Shown here: positions 2,364 through 32,894 of the stretch, one piece after another
Layout of the letters: every line of letters starts with the position of its first letter
Numbering within the stretch: the first letter of the stretch is position 1
From: Gammaproteobacteria bacterium
GTDB lineage: Bacteria > Pseudomonadota > Gammaproteobacteria > Eutrophobiales > Eutrophobiaceae
NCBI GenBank assembly: GCA_965243115.1
Contig: CBDEUD010000003.1
Span: forward strand, 2,392,325-2,456,324
Length of the DNA: 64,000 bases
Direction of reading: 5' to 3'
Position numbers and translations under genes: made by a program
Notes under the pieces: model-generated
What the model was told of the DNA's origin: nothing
The model's input: the letters and a program-made list of their open reading frames with translations, nothing else
Databases searched by the model: none

Positions 2364-2494
2364 GTCAGACTACAGAGCTCCGTTTTCTTTCCATGCGAGT
2401 TTTCTGATTGTCGCGCTCTGTTTAAATGTTACGGTCCTGAGTTTTTGACGGCGCGTTTTAATTCTTTTGGAGGGTCGCTCTATGTACGCCATTC

Positions 2495-3664: not shown

Positions 3665-3817
3665 GCGGCGCTCCAATCCATGCCGGGTCTATAACTCCAA
3701 CCAAGTACACTTTATACAAAAGCAACATATGGGGAGCCGGCCTGATACGGTCAGGTATTTATAGTTTAAAGGTAAAATATTCAGAACTTCAGGTTAATAA
3801 AAGAAGGATAATTAAAG

Positions 3818-4450
3818 ATGGCAATTTTAAGGTTATCAAATGGTGAACTAATTACCGGCTACTCAGAAATTAATGAACTGATTGTGCCAGCGGGGATGGA
3901 AGTAGGCAGGTTTAACTACCCGGATCCCCTTGAAGCCAAAGTTAAGTCAATGGAAAAACCACTAAACCAGGATGGGGCAGAGTTTATATTTAGCGAGCTC
4001 TCTGCAAATGTGGAGAGTGTGGTGAAGGACCTGGACTTTAGTTACAACTATCGTCGCGCCGGCATTTTCGTTCCAGCAAAGGAAAAGGGTGGAACAAGTG
4101 CATTTTCTATGGCTGGTGATGACCAGATGCAAGTTGCATCTGCAGAGATGACCCCAGCTGATCTCGCTAATTATATGGCACCGCACATCTTGCGAGCGAA
4201 TAACTTACATTTCTCATTCCAGGGAGCCTTTATTAAAGGCATGCAATTGGGGTCAGATTTGCAGGCGATGATTTACGTGCTAGCGGGAGAGTGGCAACGG
4301 CTTGATCCAAATATACTATCCTGGGTTGTTTTCCCGAGTGGAGAACCCGTGATTGGGTTAAGTTTTTTTGATCAAAAACCAAACGCTAGCGGCGCACACG
4401 AGACAGACGTATTTCCTGATACTGAAATTTCGGGAACAGTTAAGTTTTGA
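3818..4450 (+). CDS. hypothetical protein (no recognisable family) on a low-GC segment
   Basis: 210-aa ORF with an AAGGAT SD-like sequence upstream. The flanks are AT-rich, in contrast to the window average. Confidence 0.45.
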   Translation: MAILRLSNGELITGYSEINELIVPAGMEVGRFNYPDPLEAKVKSMEKPLNQDGAEFIFSELSANVESVVKDLDFSYNYRRAGIFVPAKEKGGTSAFSMAGDDQMQVASAEMTPADLANYMAPHILRANNLHFSFQGAFIKGMQLGSDLQAMIYVLAGEWQRLDPNILSWVVFPSGEPVIGLSFFDQKPNASGAHETDVFPDTEISGTVKF

Positions 4451-4594
4451 GCGATTTAGATTATTCAAGTTGAAATGATGTTTAACAGGTTTTGAAGTGA
4501 ATATCTTCTACCAAAGCTGCGTCAATAAAGCTTTGTCAGAGCCATATGTTCGTCACGCGGAATCAGTGCTTGGATTAAACATGAGGGCTTCGGT

Positions 4595-5614: not shown

Positions 5615-5762
5615 AAGTACTCGCCATAGATGAAGCGAATCTTTCATATGACATGCTGCTTTGGGTGGCGCCCGGCAGTACTTTTGGGTCCGGCTGGCAT
5701 ATTCTGATATCAAACATACGCTGAAGGCGTAGAGATGGATTGCACAAACATGGCGCATCATT

Positions 5763-18634: not shown

Positions 18635-20080
18635 TCACGGCAACATCCTTTCAATGGATTGCACGAACCGGCTGTAGTTGCGGCGACGCCCGCTTGAGCG
18701 GGTGTGGAGTTCGTCCCGCACCTGCCACACGCTGGCTGTTTTCACCAGGCCGGCCGTCTCCCGGAACGACAAACACCGGTCATCCCATTCCAGCCCCAGG
18801 AAATGCAGCAATCGCCGCACTGTCTGTTCCGGTGAGGCCACGAGTTCATCGTAGTCGACCGTAAAGATGTTTTCTGCGAAACAGCTTTGCCAGTGCGCCA
18901 TCAACCGTTCGTGCTGCCGGTAGTAATGGGCAGTGTCTTCCAGGCCGGTGGCATAACTGAGGTTGCCGCCGAGTTGCTGGAAGTATATCGACAGGCAGTT
19001 ATCAACCGCGTTGCGCTTGGTATAGACGATACGCGCGGCCGGAAACAGGGCCTTGACCAGGCCCAGGTGCAGGAAGTTGTCCGGCCGCTTGTCGGTGATG
19101 CGGTCTGCGCCAGGAAACTGCATCCGCAACCTGGACAGGTATTCCTGTCCCAGTTTATCCAGCTTTTCCCGCGCCGCGCCCGCGACTCCGTCCGGGTACG
19201 GTGCCAGCCTCTCCGCCACCAGCCACGGCAGGTAATCCAGTTCACCGGCGGCGGTGATCGACGGATGACCTGCCAGGACCTGCTCGATGAGGGTCGAACC
19301 GGAGCGGAACATGCCGCAGATGAAGATCGGTGTTGCCGTTGAAGCGGTAGTTACCCGCCTGATCCATTCGGGTGTAAACAGTTCGACTATCCGCTCGAAG
19401 CCCTGCTCCGCGGCGCCCCTGTCATAGGGTTGATTGCGCAGCCTGCCCATGTCGTTGGCGGTGCGGTACGCCGCGAAGGCGTCCTCGTACTGCCCGAGAT
19501 CGTCCAACGCCTTGCCCAGTGCAAAACAGAGTCCCTCTCTTGCCAGGGGGTCGTTGCCTGCATCCGCTGCCGCGCGCCTGAGTGATTCGACCAGCCCCCC
19601 GTCAGCGTCCGTTATCGTCCTTGCCCGGGCGAGCCGCGCCAGCGCATCACAGTGTCCGGGATCAATAGCGAGTATCCGTCCATATAATTCCGTTGCCCCT
19701 TGTCTTTCTCCCAATTCCTCAAACAGCCCGGCTAGGTTGAACAGCGCAGGAACATAAGCGGGATCGATGTTGAGGGCGCGCTCGTACATCTCCCTGGCTT
19801 GCGCCGGTTGACGCATCTCGGAATACAACACGCCCATGTTGGAATAGACTTCCTGAACATCGTCAATACCGTGTCTTATGGCCTCCCCGTAGGCGCTCAC
19901 GGCGTCAGCATATCGCTTGCCCTTCTTGTACAGCAACGCCAGGTTGAAATGGGCAACCGCATGCCCGGGCTGCCGTTTCAGCAGGCGCCGGTATTGGCTG
20001 ATTGCCTCATCCGTCCGGCCAAGTCCGTCCAGCAGGCCGGCGCGTTCAAATACCTGTTGGAATTCCGTATGCGATTTCAC
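18635..20080 (-). CDS. TPR-repeat protein with C-terminal sulfotransferase domain
   Basis: N-terminal TPR-like repeats (AHFNLALLYKKGKRYADAVSAYGEAI...). C-terminal PAPS-binding 5'-PSB motif FRSGSTLIEQVL. Confidence 0.8.
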   Translation of the reverse strand: MKSHTEFQQVFERAGLLDGLGRTDEAISQYRRLLKRQPGHAVAHFNLALLYKKGKRYADAVSAYGEAIRHGIDDVQEVYSNMGVLYSEMRQPAQAREMYERALNIDPAYVPALFNLAGLFEELGERQGATELYGRILAIDPGHCDALARLARARTITDADGGLVESLRRAAADAGNDPLAREGLCFALGKALDDLGQYEDAFAAYRTANDMGRLRNQPYDRGAAEQGFERIVELFTPEWIRRVTTASTATPIFICGMFRSGSTLIEQVLAGHPSITAAGELDYLPWLVAERLAPYPDGVAGAAREKLDKLGQEYLSRLRMQFPGADRITDKRPDNFLHLGLVKALFPAARIVYTKRNAVDNCLSIYFQQLGGNLSYATGLEDTAHYYRQHERLMAHWQSCFAENIFTVDYDELVASPEQTVRRLLHFLGLEWDDRCLSFRETAGLVKTASVWQVRDELHTRSSGRRRNYSRFVQSIERMLP

Positions 20081-20109
20081 GAGTTACACATTTCCCGGTA
20101 TTGGGGGCT

Positions 20110-21990
20110 TCAGTCTCTGTTGTTTTCACCATGGACCGGAACCACATCGAACGCCACGCTCATGCGCGCTTCATCCGCTTCAAAGGGCACCGTTCCGTGC
20201 CACATATAAGAGGGAAACAGTACCAATCGCCCGGTAGACGGCTGGATAACCCGGCGCGCCTCACCATAACTGCCGAGATCAATATCCGGTTCACCGAACT
20301 TTATCCCTCCACCGTTAGCCCCGGAGCCGGTGATAGCTGCCGGCACCTGGACATAACAGGCGGAACTGATCCATCCCAGCGGATGCACGTGCATGGTATG
20401 GTAACCATTTCTTTGCAAACGCACCGACCAGGACGCGGCAAAACTGAAACGCTCACAGCGGCGTAACAAGAGGGGATGTTCCGGGTCGCGCGGAAGCCGT
20501 TCGATATAGTCCCGGATGCAATGTTCCAGGCAGGTGACCAGTTCCCCGATCTCCGGTTCACCCCGGTCGAACAGGTCGCCGTGGGTCTGCGTCCCGCCTC
20601 GTAATGTCTGCTCGGGGGGATGGCGTTTGCCAAGGTGCAGGGAGTTGAGGGTGTCGCTTAATTTCCCGTTGAATTGTTCCGCATCGGCGTATCTTGCAGG
20701 CGCAGGCACGTCATAAACCCGGATAAATTTTTCGTAATCGTTGAGGATACCGTCCCGTTCGTCGTCCAGCATGCGCCAGCACAGCCCCAGGTAAGCGATG
20801 GCCCGCTGGTTGAACGGTATCTCCCGTATTGCCTGTTCGGCGTGAGGTAACGCCTCGTCCGGCCGCCGGCAGGCCAGCAATGCCCGCGCGTAGCTGACGC
20901 GATGGTTGGGCACTACTTCCGGCGCGGCCGCCGCGTCCCCATGCATCGCCAGTGCCTCATCCCAACGCTGCTGTCCTTCCAGGGTATAGCCAAGCTGGCT
21001 CTTGAGTTCGCTGGAATCCGGCGTATAGCGCAGCCCCTGTCTCAATACCCGTTCCGCCTCCTCGAATGCCCCCTTCTGATTCAGGGCAACCGCACAGGCC
21101 ATGGCAAGTTGTTCCGAGCCCGGGCGTTTGACCAGAGCCTCATGGTAGGACTTCAGGTGCTCTCCCAGCAGTTCCTGCTCCCACAACAGCGTATTCAGGT
21201 TACGATGGCTGGTGATGTCCTCGGGATTCCGCTTTATTGCGGCTCGGTAGGAGTCCATGGCGCTGCCGATATCCAGGGAATCAACCTGGGTGCTGCCGAG
21301 GTTCTGGTACAGTTCGGCCCGGTCCAGGCCCAGCCGGCGGGCAGCTTGCAAGTGTTTGATCGCATCGGACGGGCGTTGCCTGGCCCGCAGGCAAACACCC
21401 AGGTTGTGGTGCGCCTCGGCATAATCCGGACGCAGTTCGAGGGCCTTTTGGTAATTTTGAATCGCCTGATCGAAATCATCCTGTTGCTTGAATACGTTAC
21501 CGAGGCCCAGGCAGGCGGCGGCATCACCGGGACGGAGTTCCAGGCAACGCCGAAAGGATGTTCCGGCCGTCTCATAGCGTCCCTGTTCCAGGCAGCATAA
21601 GCCCAGGTTCCGCCACGCATCGACGTAACGGGGATGCAATCTCACCGCCTCGGAGTAGCTTTGCGCGGCTTCCTCATGCCTGCCGCTCAGGGACAGCGCA
21701 TTGCCCAGGTTGTTGGCGACCTCGGCCTGCTGCGGAAACCGGCGCAGGGATTCCCGCATAAATTCGATGGCGGTCTGGTATTCCCCGCGCTGCGAGTGGA
21801 GCAACCCCACGAGCTGCAGCGCCGTCGGATGGTCCGGATGCTGCGCCAGAAAGCGGTAATAGAGCGGCTCGGCCGCATCCAGGTTACCGGCTTCATGATC
21901 GGCTATAGCCTGTTGCAGCAAGGGTGGAAACCTGGATGAACTTTTTATCGCCATATATCGGTATGTCCGGCCACATGAACAGCGCGCCAA
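20110..21990 (-). CDS. TPR-repeat protein with C-terminal 2OG-Fe(II) oxygenase-like domain (TIGR02466-like)
   Basis: Multiple TPR units (AEAHHNLGVCL, AELYQNLGSTQ etc.). C-terminus HVHPLGWISSACYVQVP...LVLFPSYMWHGTVPF...RMSVAFDV resembles the small PhyH-like 2OG oxygenase family. Confidence 0.7.
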   Translation of the reverse strand: MARCSCGRTYRYMAIKSSSRFPPLLQQAIADHEAGNLDAAEPLYYRFLAQHPDHPTALQLVGLLHSQRGEYQTAIEFMRESLRRFPQQAEVANNLGNALSLSGRHEEAAQSYSEAVRLHPRYVDAWRNLGLCCLEQGRYETAGTSFRRCLELRPGDAAACLGLGNVFKQQDDFDQAIQNYQKALELRPDYAEAHHNLGVCLRARQRPSDAIKHLQAARRLGLDRAELYQNLGSTQVDSLDIGSAMDSYRAAIKRNPEDITSHRNLNTLLWEQELLGEHLKSYHEALVKRPGSEQLAMACAVALNQKGAFEEAERVLRQGLRYTPDSSELKSQLGYTLEGQQRWDEALAMHGDAAAAPEVVPNHRVSYARALLACRRPDEALPHAEQAIREIPFNQRAIAYLGLCWRMLDDERDGILNDYEKFIRVYDVPAPARYADAEQFNGKLSDTLNSLHLGKRHPPEQTLRGGTQTHGDLFDRGEPEIGELVTCLEHCIRDYIERLPRDPEHPLLLRRCERFSFAASWSVRLQRNGYHTMHVHPLGWISSACYVQVPAAITGSGANGGGIKFGEPDIDLGSYGEARRVIQPSTGRLVLFPSYMWHGTVPFEADEARMSVAFDVVPVHGENNRD

Positions 21991-22001
21991 TCATAACCCA
22001 T

Positions 22002-22030
22002 AAAAAGAAACGGCGGGCATATGCCCACCG
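22002..22030 (-). terminator. rho-independent terminator downstream of the large TonB receptor gene
   Basis: On the minus strand: stem CGGTGGGCAT/ATGCCCGCCG (one mismatch, contains the palindrome GGGCATATGCCC) followed by TTTCTTTTT. Confidence 0.6.
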
Positions 22031-22053
22031 TCCCTTAACCAACCACTACGCCC

Positions 22054-25020
22054 TCAGAACTTCTGGGAGACCCCGAAGAACAGGTAACGGCCCAGGGTAT
22101 CCCACATGCCCGGGATCGTGTTGCCGTTGCCATAGACCGAAACATTGCCGAAGAAACCGCTGACCGGCGGGTCATTATCCAACAGGTTGCTGACCCCCAT
22201 GCTCAACGTGGTTTCACCGATGCCTATAAATCCCGGCGTATAGTCAACGGACATGTCGATATAGTTCTCGGTGCCGGAACTGTAGCGATCATTGGCAAAT
22301 TCATCGACGCCGCTGATATAACGCCAGCTTCCGGCAAATGTCATGTTCCAGGGCGAGGTCCAGACCGCACCGAAGTTGTGCCGCCACTTCGGCCGCGGAC
22401 GGACGCAGGTGCTGGCGTAATAGCCCGCACAGTCTTCAACCACGGCGCCGGGTGTCAACTGTTGCTCGAATTTCTCCAGCCAGGTGCCGCGGAAGGTAAA
22501 CTCCAGGGCGCCGTAATTGCCCGGTTCCATGACATAATTGCCGAAGAAATCCATCCCCGAGGTCTCGAAAAAACCGATGTTGATATTGGTCGAGACGATA
22601 TTGGGCGCGGTCGCGCTGCTGCCGATCCAGAGGTTGCCGTTGGGTCCGCGATTGACCTGTGAGCAGAAGACCGGGTCCCCGGTCAGGCCGCACTGGTTGA
22701 CAATGAACTCCGGCTCCACGTCATCGATCGCGTCCAGGATCTCGATACTCCAGTAATCGATACTGACCGTCAGTCCCGGAATAATGTCTTCAGGAGTAAT
22801 GACCGCGCCGATGGTGAACGTGTTGGCCTTCTCCGGGGCGAGTTCGGTATTGCCGCCGAAAGTGGCATTGTACTGGCCGGCAGGACTCAGGGGTATGTTG
22901 CCGTACTGCTCCGCCGTCACCCCTGAATTCGCGCACTGCGACTGGGATTGTATCGGCGCAGAACCGGCGCAGGGGTCGACCCCGGACCACAGCCCCAGGT
23001 TGCGCGGTTCGAACAGCTCCCTGATGTTCGCGGCCCTGACCGCGCGGGAATAACCGCCGCGTAACTTCAGGCTGTCCACCGGTGTCCATTCCGTCAGGAT
23101 CTTGTAGGTGTCCGTTGTATGTCCCGTGCTGTAATCGGAGTAACGGTAGCCGACGTCGAGAGTCAGTGACTGGAACATGGGCTGGTACTCCACCAGGGGG
23201 ATCCTGGCTTCAACAAAGAACTCGGCGACATCGACCTCGCCATCCACGGGTGGGACCGGACCGCCCTGGCCGGCGCCGTCACCGGTCCGGTAGCCCAGGT
23301 CGGGGTTAAACTCCATTTTCTCGTCCCGGTATTCACCTCCGAACACGACTTGTACGCCGTCCGTCGCCATGGGACTGACAAGCCCGTAGTTGGTCAGGTC
23401 GCCGGATACGTAGGCGACGTACTGGTCCTGGTCCAGGTTGCCCGAAGCGAACAGGGGTATCTGCAGGTAGTCGAGCGCTTCCTGCGTCACGCCGCCCGCC
23501 TGGAAGACGTTCCAGGGTGCGCAAGTGGGGTCGGTGCCGTCTACGACGGATTGGCAGGTCGGCACGCCATCGACGTTGACTACATCCAGCGCCCTTATGA
23601 TGCGGGTGGTGGACAGGTCGTTGTTGTACAACTTGCTCAGGCGCGTGCGCGAGATGTTGACAAACGCATCGTAACTCCAGTTATCGTTAATATCCCCCTT
23701 GATACCACCCAGGCCTCGATACGAGGTATGGGTTATGTCGTCATTGCGAAACCCGCCTTCGACATTGCGGCGGCCGATATATATCGGCAATACGTCTGCC
23801 GGGTCCGTGCAACCGATGGCGGCGAACTGCTGCGCCGACAGGAAGGCGTTGCTGCAGTTCAGCGTGGAAGTCACGAAAAATGCGCCCGATGGCGCGATCT
23901 GTGCATTGGTGCGGTCGTCCATGAACTGGAATTCCACGTACCCTTCCAGGTGTTCGTTGACCTCGTAGTTGCCGAACAGTCCGGCCGTGTAGCGCTCATC
24001 CGGACGCTGAAAGTGATTTGGCGGGGCGTAGTTGTAGAATGAGAAATCCCAGGGGACAAATTCATTGCCTGCGACCGTGTAGTAGAAGGTGCCGTCGAAG
24101 GGTGTAAACAGGCCGGTCGGCAGCGTTGCGGAACCGGCGCAGGTATCGCCCGTTCCTCCCCCACTCAGCGCACAGGCGCTGAAATCACGTTCCGACTGGG
24201 TAAGCGCATTGGTTTCACGATAGCCGAGGTAGCCGGTAATGTTGCCCCTGCCGTCGCCCGTGTTGACGCCGAAAGTCACGTTCACGTCGTGCCCTTCGCC
24301 ATCAAAGACGCTGTCGGGGGCCTGTTCGAAACCCCTGGCTTCAACTGCGGCCTGGACATCCTCGTTGCCTGAATCGTGCTGGTACCCGGAATACTGGTAG
24401 TCGATCTGGATCCCTTCAAAGTCCTTTTTCATGATAAAGTTGACCACGCCTGACATCGCATCGGATCCATAGGTAGCAGAGGCGCCGCCGGTCAGCACCT
24501 CGATCCGTTCGATCAGCGCCCCCGGCACCTGGTTGATGTCCGGGGCGAGCGCGGTTACGTCACCGAACCCCATGCGGTGCCCGTTGGTCAGAACCAGCGT
24601 GCGGTCCGATCCCAGGCCGCGCAGGTCTATCGTCGCCGACCCGGTGGCGCCGTTGGATTCGTTGGCGGTCAATTCCGGCACTATCGACGGCAGGTCATTG
24701 ATCAGGTCTTCGACACGGGTAATGCCGCGGAAGCTGAGCTCTTCCGACTTGACCGTGGTTACCGGGCTGGACGTAACCAGGTTGGGGTCAGCGGCAATGC
24801 GTGATCCCGTGACGACTACCTCCTCCAGGGTTTCCTGCTGCGCCTGCTGGGCGCTTGCAGGGGTGGAAGCGCTGACGGCGGTTGCCGCTATGGCAACGGT
24901 TGACATTGCCCGGTTTACCGCCAATGAGAGTGGATTTCTTCGAAACATTTTGACTTCCCCTACTGCTGAATTTATTGCAAATTTTGATTTGTTGCGGAAT
25001 AAAGACATTGAAATTATCAC
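22054..25020 (-). CDS. TonB-dependent outer-membrane receptor (large, 988 aa)
   Basis: Signal peptide. Plug motif ETLEEVVVTGSRIA...DLINDLP. C-terminal beta-barrel ending ...FFGVSQKF, the canonical terminal Phe. Confidence 0.85.
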   Translation of the reverse strand: MIISMSLFRNKSKFAINSAVGEVKMFRRNPLSLAVNRAMSTVAIAATAVSASTPASAQQAQQETLEEVVVTGSRIAADPNLVTSSPVTTVKSEELSFRGITRVEDLINDLPSIVPELTANESNGATGSATIDLRGLGSDRTLVLTNGHRMGFGDVTALAPDINQVPGALIERIEVLTGGASATYGSDAMSGVVNFIMKKDFEGIQIDYQYSGYQHDSGNEDVQAAVEARGFEQAPDSVFDGEGHDVNVTFGVNTGDGRGNITGYLGYRETNALTQSERDFSACALSGGGTGDTCAGSATLPTGLFTPFDGTFYYTVAGNEFVPWDFSFYNYAPPNHFQRPDERYTAGLFGNYEVNEHLEGYVEFQFMDDRTNAQIAPSGAFFVTSTLNCSNAFLSAQQFAAIGCTDPADVLPIYIGRRNVEGGFRNDDITHTSYRGLGGIKGDINDNWSYDAFVNISRTRLSKLYNNDLSTTRIIRALDVVNVDGVPTCQSVVDGTDPTCAPWNVFQAGGVTQEALDYLQIPLFASGNLDQDQYVAYVSGDLTNYGLVSPMATDGVQVVFGGEYRDEKMEFNPDLGYRTGDGAGQGGPVPPVDGEVDVAEFFVEARIPLVEYQPMFQSLTLDVGYRYSDYSTGHTTDTYKILTEWTPVDSLKLRGGYSRAVRAANIRELFEPRNLGLWSGVDPCAGSAPIQSQSQCANSGVTAEQYGNIPLSPAGQYNATFGGNTELAPEKANTFTIGAVITPEDIIPGLTVSIDYWSIEILDAIDDVEPEFIVNQCGLTGDPVFCSQVNRGPNGNLWIGSSATAPNIVSTNINIGFFETSGMDFFGNYVMEPGNYGALEFTFRGTWLEKFEQQLTPGAVVEDCAGYYASTCVRPRPKWRHNFGAVWTSPWNMTFAGSWRYISGVDEFANDRYSSGTENYIDMSVDYTPGFIGIGETTLSMGVSNLLDNDPPVSGFFGNVSVYGNGNTIPGMWDTLGRYLFFGVSQKF

Positions 25021-25078
25021 GCAATACTCATTTTTTTTTCATGAAATCCTCATAAGTATAGTACATCAAGATATAAAA

Positions 25079-25135
25079 GATATATGAATATTTATTCATA
25101 ATTAATGTCGATATATATGAATATTTATTCATAAT
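25079..25135. promoter_or_regulatory. two direct copies of a 23-bp unit, each containing the palindrome ATGAATA-TT-TATTCAT, in the TonB receptor promoter region
   Basis: gatatatgaatatttattcataat at 25079-25102 and again at 25112-25135. Lies in the AT-rich region immediately upstream of the TonB receptor start codon. Confidence 0.55.
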
Positions 25136-25177
25136 GGATGTTGTTACTTAAATACAATATAGCCCGGACAAGAGGCT

Positions 25178-27163
25178 TTATTTGACTCGTGCCACACCTA
25201 CTTTAACCAGTGGACCGAGCGTGTCTTTCAACGGACCCAGCCATGGTTCGTAATGGCGCCAGTGATCGATACCGTCACGAAAGATGGGAGAGCGCACCTG
25301 CTCCGAACTCGCAGTGCTGACGTCACGGTCATTTTTGTAAAATTGCAGGCACGACTCCTCGTAGGGCAGTTCGCAGTATTGCAGCAGCCTGCGTACTTCG
25401 GCCTCGGTATCCGTGACCAGTGATTCGTAAATAATGCGGTGTACCCGCCCCGGGAGTACCACATCGAAATGGGCCATCAGTTCCACGTAATCCCGGTAAT
25501 AGCGCCCGATATCCTGCAGGTCGTAACTGAAATTCTGCGCACGCGCAAAATGTTCCTTGAATAACGACAAACCGCATGCCAGAGGGTGGCGCCGCACGTC
25601 GATGATACGCGCATTCGGCAATATCAGGTGGACAAACCCCACGTGGATGAAATTGTTGGGCATCTTGTCGATGAAGAACGGGGCGCCACGTTTGCGCTGA
25701 ACGCGAGTCTGCCCAATATATGTATCACCAAGCTCACGCAGCGTGTCTTCTTCCAGATTTTCCAACACTTCCGGATATCTCGTTTCATTCGGGGCCGGTT
25801 TCCATTCTTCAAGTGACATCGTAATTGCCGCGATATCGGGGAGTTCCATGGTGCCTTCGACGCTGGAGTGGCTTGACAGGATCTGTTCTACCAGTGTCGA
25901 ACCGGTGCGCGGCAGACCCAGGATGAATATGGGTTCTGGCGTACTCGCACCGGACGAGGAGCGGCCGGCAAAAAACCCGGGTGTGAACAGCGCGATGCAA
26001 CGGCGCACGTAATCAGAGAGTTCATCGGCATTGTAGCGCCTGTGTTTCCGGCACAGCCGGTTGCCATCGGCATAATGCCGAAAGGAATCGGCAAATTCAG
26101 CTTTATCTTCCAGGGCCTTGCCAATCGCGAAGTTAAAATGTATTCGATCCTCATCGTTGAGACCTGGCCTTGCCAGTTGCGTATGCATGGCTTCAAGTTC
26201 CGGCCGGGTAAATTCCAATGTCTTCAAGCTCGCCAGACCCCAGTACGGTTCGCCGAAATGCGGCGCCTGTGCAATAGCCTTGCGATAAGCGTTGGCGGAT
26301 TCCGTGCGGCGGCCAACCGTTTTCAGCATATGCCCCAGACTGGTCCAGACCGTGATTTGGCCCGGATCCTCATCAACAAGGTTTTCACAAATCTCGATGG
26401 CCTCCCCGTATTCACGCAGCCGCGCCAGAATGGCTGCCTTCAGCTTACGCAATTCCGCATTGTCCGGATCTGCCGCGAGCAACCGGTCGGCCTCCTGCAA
26501 GGCGTCAGGGGCCTTGTTCAGGCGCAACAGTACTACGGCGTAATTGTGACGTGCGCGCCGGTAACCGGGAGCGAGTTGCAGGCATCGTTCAAGCAAGGTC
26601 TCCGCCTCTCTCATCCTGTTATTACGCTCGGCAACATCCGCCAGCAGGCACAGGGCGACGATGTCGGCAGGGTGTTGTTCGATGTGATTGCGCAACCGGG
26701 TTTCAGCTTCTGCAACGCGGCCCTCTTTGAGAGCGGCAGCAGGTTCCCGCAAGTGCGGGTCATTTGTCGAATAACGTACATACGCGCTGAAAGCCTCATC
26801 CGCACCATCCCTGTCTTCCAGCGCGGTAAGAAGATCCGCCAGCGCCAGCCAGGCGTCTGAAAAATCCGGTTTTACGGTCACGGCGCGGCGCATCGATTGC
26901 ACCGCGCTTTCGTTCTGCTTCAGTTCGCGCAGCGCAAGACCTAACTGCAGGTGAACCAGTGGCGCGTCCGGAGAACTTGCGGACAACTTTGTCAGTATCT
27001 CGACCGCCGCATCCAGGTTGCCTGCCAGGCGGCTCGCGATGCCCCGGAACAACGAGGCCATCCGGTGCCCGGGAACGGCAGTCAGGAACTCGGCCGCCAG
27101 GGCCTCGGCCCGGACGGGATCAGACCGTAACAACTGCTCTATCTGCCGGAGCCTGGCATTCAT
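25178..27163 (-). CDS. TPR-repeat protein with sulfotransferase domain (paralog of 18635-20080)
   Basis: PAPS-binding motif LGLPRTGSTLVEQIL. Long N-terminal TPR region. The C-terminal region is similar to the other sulfotransferase. Confidence 0.8.
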   Translation of the reverse strand: MNARLRQIEQLLRSDPVRAEALAAEFLTAVPGHRMASLFRGIASRLAGNLDAAVEILTKLSASSPDAPLVHLQLGLALRELKQNESAVQSMRRAVTVKPDFSDAWLALADLLTALEDRDGADEAFSAYVRYSTNDPHLREPAAALKEGRVAEAETRLRNHIEQHPADIVALCLLADVAERNNRMREAETLLERCLQLAPGYRRARHNYAVVLLRLNKAPDALQEADRLLAADPDNAELRKLKAAILARLREYGEAIEICENLVDEDPGQITVWTSLGHMLKTVGRRTESANAYRKAIAQAPHFGEPYWGLASLKTLEFTRPELEAMHTQLARPGLNDEDRIHFNFAIGKALEDKAEFADSFRHYADGNRLCRKHRRYNADELSDYVRRCIALFTPGFFAGRSSSGASTPEPIFILGLPRTGSTLVEQILSSHSSVEGTMELPDIAAITMSLEEWKPAPNETRYPEVLENLEEDTLRELGDTYIGQTRVQRKRGAPFFIDKMPNNFIHVGFVHLILPNARIIDVRRHPLACGLSLFKEHFARAQNFSYDLQDIGRYYRDYVELMAHFDVVLPGRVHRIIYESLVTDTEAEVRRLLQYCELPYEESCLQFYKNDRDVSTASSEQVRSPIFRDGIDHWRHYEPWLGPLKDTLGPLVKVGVARVK

Positions 27164-28134
27164 TTCATTTTCGTCCTTTCCGCGACCATCACCCAGGCTG
27201 ACGGCACGGAGTGTTGACCGAAATTCAGAATATCACGCACGCGGATTGAAAATGCCCGGGCCGTCAACTGGGCTATTGCCCGCTCCAGTCCCGGTTCATC
27301 AAGCGCGGCTTGCAACATGGTTGCCATGCGGCCCGAATACGTGTCGAGCTCCTTTTCCATGAGCTCAATCCAGGTGAACACTTCAGCAGGCTCATAGGTC
27401 TTGAAACGGCGGTATATATGGGCCACATCGGTATACAGGCGGTACAACGTGCCGTCCGCCACACCCTTGCCCCAGCGCTGCAAAATCTTCTCTGCCGCAA
27501 CTACCGAGCCGGCGAATTTCTCATCTGCGCGGCGAAACAGGTCTTTGCCGTCATGCCCTTGCTGCACTGACGTAGCGGCTTTGAACAGCCGCTCGAAGCA
27601 ATGCAGCAGGTCGGCGTTTCGAAAACCGTCGATCGCCTCGAGATTGACAGCGCATTCCCGGTAAATTCCGCCCCCGCGCAGGTGTAACACCGCTGCGATC
27701 AGCCCGCCGCGCCCCACTACCCGGGCCGCTTCGGCGAAGACATCCAGCCCCGCATATTCCATGCCGAACTGGCTTGTCACAAGATCAAACGCACCATCCT
27801 GAAAAGGCAATTGCGCCGCATCCGCGGCGATGCCGCACAGGACGGGATCGCGATTGCGCATTTCCTCAAGTGCAGCGGGTGATTCATCGACTCCGGAAAT
27901 ATGCAGTTCGCAGTCCGGGTCCAGGCTTTTCCTTGATACCAGGGCAAAGCGCGTAACGGCGCCGTTTCCGCAGGCGATATCCAGCATTCTCGGCGCCGCC
28001 TGAAACGAGGGGAAAACCTTCCCGAACAACTGTAGCCAGAACCGTTCGAGTACCTCATCCTGGGGGCCGCCGTCCTTGTGCGCAGCCGCCGACCGGGTAT
28101 TGCGCCAGTATGCATCCCAGTCACTTACCGTCAT
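27160..28134 (-). CDS. class I SAM-dependent methyltransferase
   Basis: Motif I MLDIACGNGAVT. The stop overlaps the sulfotransferase start by 4 bp, consistent with translational coupling. Confidence 0.7.
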   Translation of the reverse strand: MTVSDWDAYWRNTRSAAAHKDGGPQDEVLERFWLQLFGKVFPSFQAAPRMLDIACGNGAVTRFALVSRKSLDPDCELHISGVDESPAALEEMRNRDPVLCGIAADAAQLPFQDGAFDLVTSQFGMEYAGLDVFAEAARVVGRGGLIAAVLHLRGGGIYRECAVNLEAIDGFRNADLLHCFERLFKAATSVQQGHDGKDLFRRADEKFAGSVVAAEKILQRWGKGVADGTLYRLYTDVAHIYRRFKTYEPAEVFTWIELMEKELDTYSGRMATMLQAALDEPGLERAIAQLTARAFSIRVRDILNFGQHSVPSAWVMVAERTKMK

Positions 28135-28145
28135 GCCGGCCGTTT

Positions 28146-29948
28146 TCAGGATCCCCGGGACGCTATCCAGTTCACGATCTTCCGCTCCAGCAGGGTCAGG
28201 GGCATGGAACCGTCGGCCAGTACCTGGCGATGAAAGGCCTTGACGTCAAAGCTATCGCCCAGCTCAGCCTCGGCCCTCCGCCGCAATTCCGTGATCCTGA
28301 GTTGGCCGACCTTGTAGGCCAGCGCCTGGCCCGGCATGGCCATATAGCGCTCAACTTCCGCGATCGCATTTGTGCGGGTGATAGGGCAGTTGGACTCCAT
28401 CCAGTCGATCGCCTGCTCCCGGGTCCAGCCGAGGGCATGCAGGCCGGTATCGACGACCAGGCGGTTGGCGCGCCATATGTCGTTGGTCAGCGCGCCTATC
28501 CGCTGGTATGGGTCCGTGTACAAACCCAGTTCCTCACCCAGGGTCTCTGCATACAAGGCCCAGCCTTCCACAAAGGCGGTCTGTCCGCCAAAGCGGCGAA
28601 ATGCCGGCAGGTCCTCCTGTTCCTGGGCCAGGGCGATCTGGAAGTGGTGGCCGGGCACCGCCTCATGGATAAACAACGATTCACGCTCCCAATTGGAACG
28701 TGACCCGACGTCATGCGTATTCACATAAAACACCGCCGGACGACTACCGTCGGGGGCCGGCGGCATGTAATGGGCGGCGGCGGCTGAAGCGGCGCGAAAT
28801 TCTTCGATGGGTTTGATGACATATTCCGCTTCGGGAATCAGGTCGAACAGGCGGGGTAACCGTTCTTCAACATCGGTTTTTATGTCGCGATAGCTTTGCA
28901 CCAGTTTTTCGGGCTCATCATAATAAAATTGCGGATCCTCGCGCATGAACCGGAAGAACGCCTTCATGTCACCCTCGAACCCGATCGTGTTTTTAATGGA
29001 CTCCATCTCTTTATACAATGCTGCCGCCTGTGTCTTCCCGATCTCATGAATTTGCTCCGGCGTCAGGTCGGTAGTCGTATGGAATTTTGCCAGGTATGCA
29101 TACCATTTATCTCCACCCGCCAGAGCGCCTATACCGTGCGAATCCCGGGCGTACCGCAGATAGTCTTCCGCCATAAAATCGTGCAGGCGTCTATAGGCCG
29201 GAACGAGCTTATCCGAAATCATGTCAGCGTAAGCAACGCTCAGGCGTTCGCGCTCCTGTTCCGGTACGCCGTCAGGAATATTCCTGACCGGCTGGTAAAA
29301 GACGCTGTCCTTTACATCATCGACTACGTGGCCATCCAGCAACGGCAGGACGCGTTCCACCAGAAGACCCGGAAGCACCACGCCTTCGCTGATGCCGGTT
29401 CGCATATTGCCGATAGCCCGGTCGACCCAGGGTATGAATCCGTCAAGCCGCTTAAGCCAGTTGTCATAATCTTCAACCGTGTTGAAAGGCTGTGCCGACG
29501 TGCCGGTCCCGAGCAGGGCGACAAAGCTGGGTATGCTGAAAAATTGCGTCACCGGTATGAGGGTTTCGAGACGTGCGTGACCGTCACGAAATTCTTCGAC
29601 GGCCATCAGGCGGTCATACTCGAAGATGTCATAGCTGAGCTGGTCCCGGCTGCTTAACCGCTCGCGATCAATAGCCTGTAACTTATCCAGGAACCCCTGT
29701 TCCAGGGCCAGGGAGTCGCGCAAATATTGTTCCGACAAATCATCCGGAAAACGATCGTTAAATCGATAATCCCCTTCAAACATCGCAGTGATCGGGTTCA
29801 GTTCGAAATTGGCATCGCGGTATTCATCAAACAAGGCATGTAACTGCATGTTCTTCCCTTCGGTTTGATCGTCAGGCGCGCGTTCGCACGCCGTGATGAA
29901 TATCAGCAGCAACGGCAACAGAGTGGCTTTGAGGTTTTGTTGATACAT
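28146..29948 (-). CDS. DUF885-family lipoprotein (putative metallopeptidase-like)
   Basis: Lipobox LLIFITAC. The HEAVPGHHFQ motif is characteristic of DUF885. Confidence 0.7.
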   Translation of the reverse strand: MYQQNLKATLLPLLLIFITACERAPDDQTEGKNMQLHALFDEYRDANFELNPITAMFEGDYRFNDRFPDDLSEQYLRDSLALEQGFLDKLQAIDRERLSSRDQLSYDIFEYDRLMAVEEFRDGHARLETLIPVTQFFSIPSFVALLGTGTSAQPFNTVEDYDNWLKRLDGFIPWVDRAIGNMRTGISEGVVLPGLLVERVLPLLDGHVVDDVKDSVFYQPVRNIPDGVPEQERERLSVAYADMISDKLVPAYRRLHDFMAEDYLRYARDSHGIGALAGGDKWYAYLAKFHTTTDLTPEQIHEIGKTQAAALYKEMESIKNTIGFEGDMKAFFRFMREDPQFYYDEPEKLVQSYRDIKTDVEERLPRLFDLIPEAEYVIKPIEEFRAASAAAAHYMPPAPDGSRPAVFYVNTHDVGSRSNWERESLFIHEAVPGHHFQIALAQEQEDLPAFRRFGGQTAFVEGWALYAETLGEELGLYTDPYQRIGALTNDIWRANRLVVDTGLHALGWTREQAIDWMESNCPITRTNAIAEVERYMAMPGQALAYKVGQLRITELRRRAEAELGDSFDVKAFHRQVLADGSMPLTLLERKIVNWIASRGS

Positions 29949-29993: not shown

Positions 29994-31169
29994 TCATTGC
30001 GTCCCGGAGGCAAATTCAGCCGATAGCAACAGGCCCATTTTGCGCCGGTAGCGGCTGTTCTGTTCCGGATTATCGGCCAGGCTGATGGCTTTACGCAGGT
30101 TTTTCTCAGCCTGTTTGTCATTACCGAGACGGCTGTGTATGGTCCCCTGTAAAAAGTAGAACCGGTGCTCCTTGTCATAGAGCCGGATGGCTGCGCGGGT
30201 ATGTTCAAGGGCAAGCAGGTACTCACGTCCGGCGAATGCCTCAAGCCCCATGCGATACCGGTAATAGGGATTTATTTCACGGTAGTACGCCACCCTCTTC
30301 TGCAGGGCCTGTGCCGTTTCCCGTTCACCCAGTTGCTCGTAGAGACGGGCGGCATTACTGGCAGCCGTCAGGTCGGAAGGATCATGCTGTAACGCCAACC
30401 GGTATGCCAGTTCCGCTGCTTCCAGTCTTCCGTAGCGCCGGTACACCGCGCCGAGGTTCGACCAGAAATAGGAAACACCGGGCTCAATGCTCAATGCCTT
30501 GACGATATAGCGAACGGCCTGCGCATGATTTTCCTGCTTCAGGTACTCCATGGCGCGGTTGTTGTAATGTTGCGCCAGGGCCAGGGAGTCGGAAATTTTT
30601 CTTTGCCTGTAACTGGTGTCATATTCCTCCATGGCTATGTCGATAACCTTATCCAGTTTATCAGGTAATCTTACTATCGCATTGATATGTTTGTACATTA
30701 TCAAGGTATTACTATCTGACATATCCCACGCGTAGGGGACATCAACTTCATTGTAATCGACCTTCAGTCCCACTTCCCTCATCAACGCGACAACAAAATT
30801 CGTGAACGCCAGGCAATTGGCGCGCCCATGGGAAAATACTTCCTGTACGGTATACGTCGCGGCGGCATCGTATTTCAGTCCCGGTGCTCCCGGCTGTAAA
30901 ACAGCTCTCAGCAGTTCCCTTAGTTTTACGTGGTCCGCAGCGCCCGGCGGGACTGCCCGGCGAGCAAACGCCGCCATCTCCGGTGACAGGTCCATCACCG
31001 GCTCGTCGGGCATCACCAGGGGCGCAGCGTCTTCACCAAACACGGGTTTGCCGCTGAGCAGCCATGCCTGTTGTGCGGCAGTTACCGGCCGATCCGCAAT
31101 CGGGGTATTGACTGCACAGCCGGAAAGCCACATCAGCAAAATAATGATGGCCGTATTAAATCTGGTCAT
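29994..31169 (-). CDS. transglutaminase-like domain lipoprotein with C-terminal TPR repeats
   Basis: Lipobox LMWLSGCAV. Catalytic-Cys context GRANCLAFTNFVVALMREVGL (GxCxxFA). TPR-like units in the C-terminal half. Confidence 0.7.
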   Translation of the reverse strand: MTRFNTAIIILLMWLSGCAVNTPIADRPVTAAQQAWLLSGKPVFGEDAAPLVMPDEPVMDLSPEMAAFARRAVPPGAADHVKLRELLRAVLQPGAPGLKYDAAATYTVQEVFSHGRANCLAFTNFVVALMREVGLKVDYNEVDVPYAWDMSDSNTLIMYKHINAIVRLPDKLDKVIDIAMEEYDTSYRQRKISDSLALAQHYNNRAMEYLKQENHAQAVRYIVKALSIEPGVSYFWSNLGAVYRRYGRLEAAELAYRLALQHDPSDLTAASNAARLYEQLGERETAQALQKRVAYYREINPYYRYRMGLEAFAGREYLLALEHTRAAIRLYDKEHRFYFLQGTIHSRLGNDKQAEKNLRKAISLADNPEQNSRYRRKMGLLLSAEFASGTQ

Positions 31170-32833: not shown

Positions 32834-32894
32834 AGGTAAAAACCGGAACCTTTCCGCACGTCCTCACAGCGGCCCTTGCCATGGCGAAATATAA

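What the first reader, a model, noticed from the sequence alone, without database searches (positions are those of the whole stretch)
18635..28134. Cluster of two TPR-sulfotransferases, a TPR-2OG-Fe(II) oxygenase and a SAM methyltransferase wrapped around a 988-aa TonB-dependent receptor
All five genes are on the minus strand. Both sulfotransferases have long N-terminal TPR arrays and a PAPS-binding (R/T)GSTL motif. The oxygenase gene likewise fuses ~400 aa of TPRs to a small PhyH-like 2OG oxygenase, a domain logic reminiscent of eukaryotic Asp/Asn beta-hydroxylase. The methyltransferase is translationally coupled to sulfotransferase 2. TPR arrays imply a protein or peptide (or scaffolded) substrate. 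Sulfation, hydroxylation and methylation enzymes organised around an outer-membrane importer could make or remodel a sulfated, hydroxylated signal or siderophore-like ligand. The function of such TPR-sulfotransferase genes next to TonB receptors is, to my knowledge, uncharacterised. No precursor-peptide ORF is evident, but ORFs under 60 aa were not in the supplied track.
Basis: partly seen in the sequence, partly recalled or inferred. Interest (0 to 1): 0.7.

Follow-up and report, generated by a model that had tools for sequence, protein, structure and literature searches.

The report
Peptide-tailoring enzymes flanking a TonB receptor
Two sulfotransferases resembling tyrosine sulfotransferases, an oxygenase resembling prolyl hydroxylases and a methyltransferase sit around an outer-membrane importer in a gene order conserved across related marine-sediment bacteria; the enzymes look active and peptide-directed, comparative genomics noted this cluster type in 2010, and its substrate is still unknown.

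Summary
The five minus-strand genes exist as described, with small corrections. The receptor most likely starts at 24948 (964 aa) and the oxygenase at 21954 (614 aa).

- **Sulfotransferases:** both keep every catalytic residue of tyrosylprotein sulfotransferases.
- **Oxygenase:** it belongs to PF13759/TIGR02466, not PhyH. It has an invariant HxH...H...R motif, and its nearest characterised folds are protein prolyl hydroxylases.
- **Conservation:** the order ST2-receptor-oxygenase-ST1 holds in all Woeseiaceae-like relatives with enough sequence. The same methyltransferase family is linked in 8 of 10, but at a different position.
- **Extended module:** in other alpha- and gammaproteobacteria it adds TPR-Asp/Asn hydroxylases, SapC and a small secreted protein ("c2"). 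It often lies beside peptidases and Opp peptide importers.
- **What is missing:** the window has no precursor peptide, scaffold synthetase or exporter.
- **Regulation:** the receptor has two perfect ARG-box palindromes upstream and a strong terminator hairpin downstream.

Iyer et al. (2010) already described related receptor-dioxygenase-sulfotransferase neighbourhoods computationally. I found no experimental work.

My best reading is a cytoplasmic, TPR-guided peptide or protein tailoring module tied to a peptide-acquisition receptor, with the substrate encoded elsewhere or imported.

The parts
18635..20080 (-). ST1: TPR array plus a PAPS-dependent sulfotransferase domain resembling TPST (481 aa). 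No signal peptide. N-terminally about 70 aa shorter than its orthologues.
   Evidence: Pfam PF13469 1e-43. Catalytic R, E, K, R..S and S all present. 53-70% identity to orthologues in L001-L016 over the catalytic domain, and 56-65% over residues 14-480 against three full-length orthologues.
20110..21954 (-). Oxygenase: about 400 aa of OGT-like TPRs plus a PF13759/TIGR02466 double-stranded beta-helix domain (614 aa) with an HxH...H...R motif.
   Evidence: Pfam. Start confirmed by alignment. H531, H534, H536, H598 and R609 invariant in 74/74 sequences. AF2 model pLDDT 93. Foldseek top hits are 3bvc and 2rg4, then OGFOD1, PPHD and PHD2.
22005..22036 (-). Terminator-like hairpin (14-bp stem, then a U-tract) directly after the receptor stop codon.
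   Evidence: Palindrome found. RNA fold -24 kcal/mol, z = -4.8. Sequence.
22054..24948 (-). TonB-dependent outer-membrane receptor, 964 aa, with a signal peptide and a TonB box (LEEVVVTGSR).
   Evidence: Plug and barrel domains. N-terminus read. Only plug-level similarity to BtuB, FepA and CirA. 53-62% identity to receptors in L001-L016.
25083..25133 (.). Two perfect 18-bp palindromes, TATGAATATTTATTCATA (25083-25100 and 25116-25133), 33 bp centre to centre, in the AT-rich gap between ST2 and the receptor. Each matches the ARG-box consensus at 18 of 18 positions.
   Evidence: They are the only two matches in the window. Consensus WWTGMATWWWWATKCANW is quoted in PMC11172107.
25178..27163 (-). 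ST2: about 400 aa of TPRs plus a TPST-like sulfotransferase domain (661 aa). No signal peptide.
   Evidence: Pfam PF13469 4e-46. Residue-level alignment to TPST1 and 8w5z. 57-62% full-length identity to orthologues.
27160..28134 (-). Class I SAM methyltransferase with an unassigned C-terminal half of about 170 aa. Its stop overlaps the ST2 start (ATGA).
   Evidence: Pfam. Overlap shown. The same family (34-38% identity over the full length, E about 1e-64) is linked to the module in 8/10 relatives. Weak SAM-core match to the peptide methyltransferase LahSB.
28146..29948 (-). Context gene, probably co-transcribed with MT-ST2: DUF885 lipoprotein with an HEXXXH-type metal-site motif (HEAVPGHH).
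   Evidence: Pfam 5e-172. Lipobox read. 11-nt gap to the MT. DUF885 homologues recur near the oxygenase in 7 other loci. It does not occupy this position in the Woeseiaceae-like loci.
29994..31169 (-). Context gene: lipoprotein with a weak transglutaminase-like core plus TPRs, 45 nt upstream of DUF885.
   Evidence: Not found in related loci.

Best explanation
This is a conserved 'modification-only' module attached to a nutrient-type TonB-dependent receptor.

Shown:
- Three enzyme genes (ST2, oxygenase, ST1) and a receptor keep one order across a bacterial family. A methyltransferase of one family stays linked even though its position changes.
- Both sulfotransferases carry the full catalytic set of tyrosylprotein sulfotransferases.
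- The oxygenase has an intact metal and 2-oxoglutarate site (an HxH...H...R variant) and a fold nearest to protein prolyl hydroxylases.
- None of the enzymes has a signal peptide.

Inferred:
- The enzymes work in the cytoplasm, where PAPS, 2-oxoglutarate and SAM are available.
- Their OGT-like TPR arrays hold an extended peptide or unfolded protein. The oxygenase hydroxylates it, and the sulfotransferases and methyltransferase then cap hydroxyl, phenol or carboxyl groups.
- The substrate is not encoded in the window. It is either made elsewhere or is a peptide brought in through the receptor. In relatives the co-clustered secreted protein c2 is the best candidate.
- The receptor itself belongs to a peptide and amino-acid acquisition setting. 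Its neighbours are a DUF885 lipoprotein, a POT symporter, an M2 peptidase and an amidohydrolase, and it carries two ARG boxes.
For: - **Conserved order:** ST2-receptor-oxygenase-ST1 is found in L001-L016. Among Woeseiaceae-like loci with at least 5 kb on both sides, a receptor and an ST lie within 5 kb in 10/10 and the MT in 8/10. The flanking genes differ between genomes, so the core moves as a unit.
- **Recurrence elsewhere:** in other Alpha- and Gammaproteobacteria, 17/34 loci have a receptor within 5 kb, and some also have ST, TPR-AspH, SapC or c2.
- **Sulfotransferase residues:** R419, G421, T423, E440, K500, R525, S533 and S619 are conserved in 45-49 of 49 sequences, including both window enzymes. 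They align with the TPST 5'-PSB loop, catalytic Glu and Lys, 3'-PB motif and Ser. The best solved relatives are protein-tyrosine sulfotransferases.
- **Oxygenase:** H534-x-H536, H598 and R609 are invariant in 74/74. The AF2 model has pLDDT 93. After two uncharacterised TIGR02466 structures, the nearest folds are OGFOD1, P. putida PPHD, PHD2 and viral collagen P4H. There is a weak PF13640 hit.
- **TPR arrays:** they are most similar to OGT and SPINDLY TPRs (E down to 1e-58), with an NLG motif in successive repeats.
- **Richer versions contain modifiers only:** L082/L083 carry AspH x2, 2OG_Oxy_3, 2OG_Oxy_5 and ST x2-3 between two receptors. The c2 start overlaps the TPR-AspH stop.
- **Peptide theme:** c2 pairs with SBP_bac_5/Opp transporters. 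DUF885, amidohydrolase, SppA-like and M2 peptidase genes recur near the oxygenase. The window has the same neighbours and two perfect ARG boxes.
Against: - No substrate gene is present in the window. c2, SapC and AspH are absent from all 64 kb.
- c2's only near-invariant Tyr is Phe in some members, so Tyr sulfation of that residue cannot be the general function.
- The receptor is transcriptionally insulated, with its own operators upstream and a strong hairpin downstream. Co-expression with the enzymes is therefore not shown.
- The ST family also includes CurM-type enzymes that act on carrier-bound small molecules.
- The oxygenase lacks the canonical HxD/E motif.
- Receptors next to the oxygenase range from 25 to 62% identity to the window receptor. 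Half of the non-Woeseiaceae loci have no receptor within 5 kb.
- TPRs could serve only for assembly.
- Absence of signal peptides was judged by reading N-termini, not with a predictor.
Confidence: 0.45

Rival explanations
1. The cluster makes a small secreted siderophore-like or signal metabolite. An amino-acid derivative is hydroxylated, then sulfated and methylated, exported, and re-imported by the cognate receptor. This is the reading of the first reader and of Iyer et al. 2010.
For: Iyer et al. predicted exactly this for related neighbourhoods of TonB receptor, SapC, halogenase, 2OG dioxygenase and sulfotransferase. Siderophore and chalkophore operons typically combine tailoring enzymes with a receptor. 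From my own knowledge, methanobactin operons include a receptor and a sulfotransferase. The oxygenase family has cyanophage relatives, as those authors described.
Against: No NRPS, NIS synthetase, ATP-grasp ligase, precursor peptide or exporter is conserved in any of the 16 close loci or in the enzyme-rich L082 version. The operators are ARG-box-like in the window and GTTGC-N6-GCAAC in relatives, not Fur-box-like. The receptor is about 960 aa and matches siderophore receptors only in the plug, far below family cut-offs. Every enzyme carries a long TPR array, which is unusual for small-molecule tailoring.
Confidence: 0.2
2. The enzymes process material imported through the receptor. Peptides taken up by the receptor and an inner-membrane peptide transporter are hydroxylated, sulfated or methylated in the cytoplasm, for catabolism or to inactivate toxic peptides.
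For: The module repeatedly lies beside peptide importers (Opp/SBP_bac_5, and POT in the window) and peptidases. ARG boxes tie the receptor to amino-acid status. The enzymes are cytoplasmic by sequence.
Against: I know of no catabolic route that uses PAPS-dependent sulfation, and spending PAPS on nutrients is costly. The inner-membrane transporter is not a conserved member of the core.
Confidence: 0.12
3. The receptor precursor, or another exported envelope protein, is itself the substrate and is modified in the cytoplasm before Sec export.
For: The receptor is the only non-enzyme protein that is always present in the close relatives. TPR arrays of the OGT type bind extended, unfolded chains, which is the state of Sec pre-proteins (inference).
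Against: Receptors next to the oxygenase belong to very different subfamilies, at 25-62% identity. Many oxygenase loci have no receptor nearby. I know of no precedent for such modifications on bacterial outer-membrane proteins.
Confidence: 0.1
4. The adjacency has no functional meaning. These genomes are rich in receptors and in TPR-sulfotransferase paralogues, which simply happen to lie together.
For: Several ST paralogues lie within single 20-kb loci such as L001 and L008. The receptor appears to be separately regulated.
Against: The same order, with position-specific orthologues, is kept in all informative Woeseiaceae-like loci while the flanks change. ST1 and ST2 are only about 28-32% identical to each other, yet each is 56-65% identical over near full length to its positional counterpart in the three relatives checked. 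The MT stays linked despite changing position. The association recurs in other bacterial classes.
Confidence: 0.05

Closest known systems
Neighbourhoods of TonB receptor, SapC, tryptophan halogenase and JmjC or classical 2OG dioxygenase, with or without sulfotransferase and methyltransferase (Iyer, Abhiman, de Souza & Aravind 2010, NAR, PMC2938197)
   Same: Both occur in alpha- and gammaproteobacteria and combine a TonB-type receptor with classical 2OG dioxygenases related to cyanophage Syn9 gp52/gp54, sulfotransferases and methyltransferases. Among the nine classical 2OG dioxygenases of the cyanophage Syn9 array the authors note one TPR-fused family. SapC lies next to ST2 in relatives L007 and L008.
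   Different: The window has no SapC, halogenase or JmjC protein. All three main enzymes here are TPR-fused. Two distinct TPST-like sulfotransferases occupy conserved positions. The context is peptide uptake rather than siderophore-like. The 2010 description is purely computational and left the function unknown.
Tyrosylprotein sulfotransferases: animal TPST1/2, and Xanthomonas RaxST acting on RaxX (RaxST from my own knowledge)
   Same: Same Pfam family (PF13469). The 5'-PSB loop, catalytic Glu and Lys, 3'-PB motif and Ser all align. Like RaxST, the enzymes are cytoplasmic.
   Different: They are only distantly related (E 1e-11 to 1e-6). They carry N-terminal TPR arrays that TPST and RaxST lack. 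The window has no RaxX-like precursor and no peptidase-containing ABC exporter. The acceptor residue is unknown.
Protein prolyl 4-hydroxylases (PHD2, OGFOD1/Tpa1, P. putida PPHD acting on EF-Tu, viral collagen P4H)
   Same: Among characterised proteins these have the closest folds (Foldseek E 6e-9 to 1e-7). A distal His and a 2OG-binding Arg are conserved. There is a weak PF13640 hit.
   Different: Sequence identity is only 12-17%. The metal motif is HxH rather than HxD. The true family, PF13759/TIGR02466 (structures 3bvc and 2rg4), has no known function. TM-scores are about 0.5.
TPR-plus-catalytic-domain protein modifiers: O-GlcNAc transferase and human AspH
   Same: The domain logic is the same: a long N-terminal TPR superhelix followed by a catalytic domain. 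The TPRs are most similar to OGT and SPINDLY TPRs. True TPR-AspH (PF05118) fusions belong to the module in relatives.
   Different: The catalytic domains in the window are a sulfotransferase and a PF13759 oxygenase, not a glycosyltransferase or AspH. Substrate binding by the TPRs is inferred, not shown.
Methanobactin operons, which include the receptor MbnT and the sulfotransferase MbnS (from my own knowledge)
   Same: A receptor gene is clustered with a PAPS-dependent sulfotransferase that decorates a ribosomal peptide ligand.
   Different: No MbnA-like precursor or MbnBC core enzymes are present in the window or in the close relatives. A fragmentary MbnB_TglH_ChrH gene call about 8 kb from c2 in L084 was not followed up.

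Membership tests
PAPS-dependent sulfotransferase, TPST-like (PF13469) | 5'-phosphosulfate-binding loop (P/F-R-x-G-S/T-T-L) | tested here: met
   PRTGSTL in ST2 and FRSGSTL in ST1. R419, G421 and T423 are conserved in 46-49/49.
PAPS-dependent sulfotransferase, TPST-like (PF13469) | Catalytic base Glu, catalytic Lys, 3'-phosphate-binding R...S motif and C-terminal Ser, equivalent to TPST2 E99, K158, R183/S191 and S285 (TPST2 numbering from my own knowledge) | tested here: met
   E440, K500, R525, S533 and S619 are present in both window enzymes and in 45-49/49 homologues. They align with the TPST1 and 8w5z residues.
PAPS-dependent sulfotransferase, TPST-like (PF13469) | The acceptor is a protein tyrosine | not testable with these tools
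   Only homology and the TPR fusion suggest a peptide acceptor. CurM-type enzymes of the same superfamily act on non-protein acceptors.
Fe(II)/2-oxoglutarate dioxygenase | Double-stranded beta-helix fold | tested here: met
   AF2 pLDDT 93. Foldseek probability 1.0 to many 2OG oxygenases.
Fe(II)/2-oxoglutarate dioxygenase | HxD/E...H facial triad | tested here: not met
   The motif is H534-V-H536...H598, invariant in 74/74, so the carboxylate ligand is replaced by His. The JmjC protein JMJD8 has a similar HxH variant.
Fe(II)/2-oxoglutarate dioxygenase | Basic residue that binds the 2OG C5 carboxylate, about 10 residues after the distal His | tested here: met
   R609 lies 11 residues after H598 and is invariant in 74/74; the residue two positions on is Ser in the window and Thr in the 22-sequence consensus.
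   The catalytic region alone hits only PF13759 (2e-23) and PF13640 (0.003), even with the threshold set to E = 1.
Asp/Asn beta-hydroxylase (PF05118) | Match to PF05118 | tested here: not met
   The window oxygenase gives no hit. Separate TPR-PF05118 proteins exist in related loci but not in the window.
TonB-dependent receptor | Signal peptide, TonB box, plug domain and 22-strand barrel domain | tested here: met
   PF07715 and PF00593. The signal peptide and LEEVVVTGSR were read from the sequence.
Siderophore receptor subfamilies (FepA, CirA, FhuA, TIGR01783) | Score above the family cut-off | tested here: not met
   Scores of 43-89 bits against cut-offs of 223-1200 bits, with matches limited to the plug.
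RiPP biosynthetic cluster | A precursor peptide gene next to the tailoring enzymes | tested here: not met
   The coding gaps are 11-99 nt, apart from one 229-nt promoter gap. Its only ORF (34 aa, 25028-25132) is built from the operator repeats, has no Shine-Dalgarno sequence and is not conserved.
Siderophore/NRPS-type biosynthetic cluster | A scaffold-forming synthetase and an exporter | tested here: not met
   None was found in the annotated neighbours of the window cluster (about 7-43 kb) or in L001-L016, L082.
Iyer et al. 2010 TonB-receptor/dioxygenase neighbourhoods | A receptor plus a Syn9 gp52/54-like classical 2OG dioxygenase, with a sulfotransferase or methyltransferase | tested here: met
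   All components are present. The oxygenase has 24-27% identical cyanophage homologues. Description.
Iyer et al. 2010 TonB-receptor/dioxygenase neighbourhoods | SapC and tryptophan halogenase | tested here: not met
   No SapC in the window, although it is present in relatives L005, L007, L008 and L014. No halogenase turned up in the clustered and Pfam-annotated genes of the loci, but halogenases were not searched for with a dedicated model.

The most novel reading that the evidence does not exclude
The TPR-fused sulfotransferases, prolyl-hydroxylase-like oxygenases and Asp/Asn hydroxylases could form a bacterial post-translational modification system. It would decorate unfolded precursors of exported envelope proteins in the cytoplasm. 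Candidate targets are the small secreted c2 protein that sits inside the richest versions of the module, or the receptor itself. This would be a prokaryotic counterpart of the hydroxylation and sulfation of eukaryotic secreted and matrix proteins. It would also make these enzymes the first large family of bacterial protein sulfotransferases beyond RaxST.
Probability: 0.15. Interest if true: 0.85.

Novelty: new variant of a known kind. Interest (0 to 1): 0.5.

Why it matters
To my knowledge, bacterial protein or peptide sulfation is known essentially from one system, RaxST acting on RaxX. The PF13759/TIGR02466 oxygenase family has two solved structures and many phage and bacterial members, but I found no described function.

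This oxygenase family is widespread. The order around the receptor is strongly conserved in Woeseiaceae, a bacterial family abundant in marine sediments.

Finding the substrate would do three things:
- assign a function to three large families of 'TPR-repeat' enzymes;
- test a comparative-genomics prediction made in 2010;
- clarify how proteobacteria that rely heavily on TonB-dependent receptors handle peptides.

The window offers a compact, testable version: four enzymes, one receptor and a likely arginine-responsive operator.

Tried and rejected
- **Exact-protein look-up of the receptor.** Neither start codon gave a record, so the source genome is not in that index.
- **Rfam scan of the whole window.** No riboswitch or other RNA family was found upstream of the receptor.
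- **The 34-aa Tyr-rich ORF (25028-25132) as a sulfation precursor.** Rejected. It is built from the two palindromic repeats, its Tyr content follows from AT-rich TAT codons, it has no Shine-Dalgarno sequence, and relatives have nothing equivalent.
- **PhyH or AspH identity for the oxygenase.** Rejected.
- **Fur-type control.** The operators read as ARG boxes, not Fur boxes (and my own reading of the sequence).
- **GG-leader peptides plus a C39 ABC exporter in L088 as the missing precursor and exporter.** Rejected. They are hydrophobic, Gly-rich, bacteriocin-like peptides seen in that one locus only.
- **c2 as a component of the window.** Absent from all 64 kb, even at E = 10.
- **A single orthologous receptor co-evolving with the oxygenase.** Not supported. 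Adjacent receptors range from 25 to 62% identity.
- **Literature searches.** Searches for TPR-sulfotransferase with TonB receptor, Woeseia with sulfotransferase, halogenase with TonB and PUL, and 'repeat-containing sulfotransferase' returned nothing relevant. Blanvillain et al. 2007 does not mention these genes. Papers citing TIGR02466 or PF13759 give no function.
- **Profile search of c2 against solved structures.** No hit.

Full report
**Observation**

Pfam assigns the following:
- ST1 (18635-20080): TPR repeats plus Sulfotransfer_3, PF13469, E 1e-43.
- Oxygenase (20110-21990): TPR repeats plus 2OG-FeII_Oxy_5, PF13759, E 1e-22.
- Receptor (22054-25020): Plug plus TonB-dependent barrel.
- ST2 (25178-27163): TPR repeats plus PF13469, E 4e-46.
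- Methyltransferase (27160-28134): a class I SAM methyltransferase.

The MT stop and ST2 start overlap as ATGA.

Three corrections apply:
- The receptor most likely starts at ATG 24948. This gives 964 aa with a typical signal peptide and a TonB box.
- The oxygenase starts at ATG 21954. The resulting 614 aa align end to end with orthologues.
- ST1 is about 70 residues shorter at its N-terminus than its orthologues.

By their N-terminal sequences, none of ST1, ST2, the oxygenase or the MT has a signal peptide. The window holds no other sulfotransferase or oxygenase of these families; it does hold a second, unrelated TonB-dependent receptor at 27-2363.

**Are the enzymes intact, and what do they resemble?**

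The closest solved relatives of the ST2 catalytic domain are protein-tyrosine sulfotransferases: 8w5z at E 1e-11 and TPST1 at about 1e-6. The CurM sulfotransferase follows.

In the residue-level alignment, the PAPS 5'-phosphosulfate loop, the catalytic Glu and Lys, the 3'-phosphate R...S motif and the C-terminal Ser all line up. Across 49 module-linked sulfotransferase domains these positions are conserved in 45-49 sequences, including both window proteins.

The oxygenase catalytic region matches only PF13759, plus a weak hit to PF13640, the prolyl-hydroxylase family. It matches neither PhyH nor AspH. Its invariant residues form an HxH...H motif followed by an Arg 11 residues after the distal His; the residue two positions on is Ser or Thr (74/74 for the His and Arg residues). 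This is a variant of the usual HxD/E triad.

An AlphaFold model of this region is confident, with pLDDT 93. Its nearest solved folds are two uncharacterised TIGR02466 proteins, 3bvc and 2rg4. Protein prolyl hydroxylases come next: OGFOD1, P. putida PPHD, PHD2, viral collagen P4H and Tpa1.

The TPR arrays are most similar to those of O-GlcNAc transferase and SPINDLY. The MT has only a weak SAM-core match to the peptide methyltransferase LahSB. Its C-terminal half has no family assignment.

**Conservation**

The closest oxygenase homologues come from Woeseiaceae metagenome-assembled genomes. A scan of species-representative genomes, using an alignment of the oxygenase domain, found at least 593 loci. 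Eighty of these were retrieved with flanking sequence.

In the 16 Woeseiaceae-like loci, tblastn, ORF labelling and HMM scans gave a consistent picture:
- The order ST2-receptor-oxygenase-ST1 is kept wherever enough sequence is present. L001 has an extra sulfotransferase inserted. L010 and L014 lack ST2.
- Among loci with at least 5 kb on both sides, a receptor and an ST lie within 5 kb of the oxygenase in 10/10, and the MT in 8/10.
- ST1 and ST2 are only about 28-32% identical to each other. Each is 56-65% identical over near full length to its positional orthologue in the three relatives checked, and 53-71% over the catalytic domain across the loci. They are old, non-redundant partners.
- The MT is the same family over its full length (34-38% identity, E about 1e-64). 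In relatives it usually lies convergent, downstream of ST1, rather than upstream of ST2. Linkage that survives rearrangement argues for shared function.
- The flanking genes differ between genomes.

The second refutation condition, scattered paralogues, is therefore also not met.

**The wider module**

Outside Woeseiaceae, the loci come from Rhizomicrobium, Sphingomonadales, Kordiimonas, Steroidobacteraceae and Lysobacterales. There the oxygenase has a receptor within 5 kb in 17/34 loci. The adjacent receptors belong to different subfamilies, at 25-42% identity to the window receptor.

Other members recur in these loci:
- TPR-fused Asp/Asn beta-hydroxylases (PF05118).
- SapC (PF07277).
- A protein family without any Pfam assignment that I call c2.

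c2 is about 160-200 aa long. It has a signal peptide, an invariant C...RLxC[Y/F]D motif, an Ala/Pro/Glu-rich linker ending in FG, and a C-terminal domain containing LDNGQVWRQ.

Contigs holding c2 homologues show two patterns. The first is enzyme-rich: in L082/L083, two AspH genes, PF13640, PF13759 and two or three sulfotransferases lie between two receptors, and the c2 start overlaps the TPR-AspH stop. The second pairs c2 with Opp-type peptide ABC importers, sometimes with the TPR-oxygenase nearby.

DUF885, secreted amidohydrolase, SppA-like and M2 peptidase genes also recur near the oxygenase. The window has the same kinds of neighbour:
- a DUF885 lipoprotein and a transglutaminase-like TPR lipoprotein directly upstream of the MT;
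- a divergent POT peptide symporter;
- an ACE-like M2 peptidase;
- an amidohydrolase.

The window itself lacks c2, SapC and AspH.

**Regulation**

The 229-nt gap between ST2 and the receptor is AT-rich. It holds two perfect copies of the 18-bp palindrome TATGAATATTTATTCATA, spaced 33 bp apart. These are the only two matches in the window. Each copy fits the ARG-box consensus WWTGMATWWWWATKCANW at all 18 positions (consensus as quoted in PMC11172107).

Relatives carry different palindromes at the same place, of the form GTTGC-N6-GCAAC or GTTGT-N-ACAAC.

Directly after the receptor stop codon lies a 14-bp hairpin with a U-tract (-24 kcal/mol, z = -4.8). The receptor therefore looks like a separately controlled unit inside a conserved gene order. 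The oxygenase and ST1 (29-nt gap) and DUF885-MT-ST2 (11-nt gap, then a 4-nt overlap) form the tighter pairs.

**Precursor and scaffold**

No small ORF qualifies as a precursor. Every coding gap but one is shorter than 100 nt. The only ORF in the promoter gap (34 aa, Tyr-rich) is a by-product of the AT-rich operator repeats. No synthetase or exporter is conserved in any version of the module.

**Prior knowledge**

Iyer, Abhiman, de Souza and Aravind (2010) described alpha- and gammaproteobacterial neighbourhoods combining:
- a TonB-type receptor;
- SapC;
- tryptophan halogenases;
- JmjC or classical 2OG dioxygenases related to cyanophage Syn9 gp52/gp54;
- in some cases, sulfotransferases and methyltransferases.

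Among the nine classical 2OG dioxygenases of the cyanophage Syn9 array they also noted one TPR-fused family.

They predicted an unknown siderophore-like, amino-acid-derived metabolite whose hydroxyl groups are then methylated or sulfated. The window oxygenase does have distant cyanophage homologues. I found no experimental study of these proteins or of PF13759/TIGR02466.

**Interpretation**

The following points are shown:
- The receptor-centred gene set is conserved.
- The sulfotransferases are catalytically intact.
- The oxygenase has an intact, variant active site.
- The enzymes are cytoplasmic by sequence.
- The module consists only of modifying enzymes.
- It recurs in peptide-uptake and peptide-degradation contexts.

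From these I infer that the TPR arrays present an extended peptide or unfolded protein to the catalytic domains. Hydroxylation would be followed by O-sulfation and methylation. The substrate is encoded elsewhere or imported.

I rate this reading at about 0.45. The siderophore-like metabolite model is weakened by the lack of any scaffold enzyme, exporter or metal-type operator, and I rate it at about 0.2. Processing of imported peptides (0.12), modification of the receptor itself (0.1) and coincidence (0.05) remain possible.

**Verdict**

It is a TPR-rich, sulfotransferase-heavy variant of a neighbourhood class already noted computationally, not a new kind of system. Its substrate and purpose remain open, and this compact version lends itself well to experiment.

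Noticed in passing
window 25083-25100 and 25116-25133: Two perfect 18-bp palindromes, TATGAATATTTATTCATA, lie 33 bp apart upstream of the receptor gene. Each matches the ARG-box (ArgR operator) consensus at 18 of 18 positions, and they are the only such sites in the 64 kb. The spacing differs from the tandem 18-bp boxes described for E. coli; from my own knowledge those lie about 21 bp centre to centre.
   Followed up: partly
L005 5504-5519, L007 4560-4575, L014 5698-5713, L015 5689-5704, L016 5662-5677, L084 11244-11259: Relatives carry a different conserved palindrome, GTTGC-N6-GCAAC, with a second GTTGT-N-ACAAC-like site, immediately upstream of the module's receptor gene. The regulator is unknown. 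The window has no copy.
   Followed up: partly
L003 2741-3865, L007 980-1579, L016 3023-3592, L020 10774-11274, L082 9001-9606 and others: 'c2' is a family of secreted proteins of about 160-200 aa with no Pfam assignment. It has a C...RLxC[Y/F]D motif, an A/P/E-rich linker, an FG motif and an LDNGQVWRQ domain. It is embedded in the enzyme-rich versions of the module and elsewhere is paired divergently with Opp-type peptide ABC importers.
   Followed up: partly
window 17314-18621 (+): A 435-aa protein with a signal peptide lies convergent with ST1. It has no Pfam or NCBIfam match and no homologue in the 80 related loci.
   Followed up: no
window 31280-34820 (+): A POT-family oligopeptide:H+ symporter is followed by an angiotensin-converting-enzyme-like M2 peptidase (E 1e-217). 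M2 peptidases also lie about 3.4 kb from the oxygenase in two Sphingobium loci (L074, L080).
   Followed up: partly
L088 121-3585: A C39-peptidase ABC exporter is followed by three tandem 52-60-aa ORFs with double-glycine leaders (VHGG or VNGG) and Gly-rich hydrophobic cores. This looks like a bacteriocin locus next to a Kordiimonas TPR-oxygenase-c2-receptor set. I judged it unrelated.
   Followed up: partly
L082 2220-3278 (-): A 352-aa protein has a P-loop-like HVGSTL motif and only a marginal PF13469 hit (E 0.06). It may be a divergent third sulfotransferase, without TPRs, inside the enzyme-rich module.
   Followed up: no
L007 4590-4660 (gap between ST2 and the receptor): Three tandem copies of an approximately 20-nt unit (ATTGCGTATTGTATCTG-like) lie upstream of the receptor. 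This may be another operator array.
   Followed up: no
window 48000-56000: AT skew on the plus strand is strongly positive, up to 0.27. Three long minus-strand ORFs (484, 505 and 659 aa) lie at 49188-54146. The cause was not examined.
   Followed up: no
window 1-6000: This region has lower G+C (0.46-0.50, against about 0.56 elsewhere). It contains a second, unrelated 778-aa TonB-dependent receptor at 27-2363.
   Followed up: no
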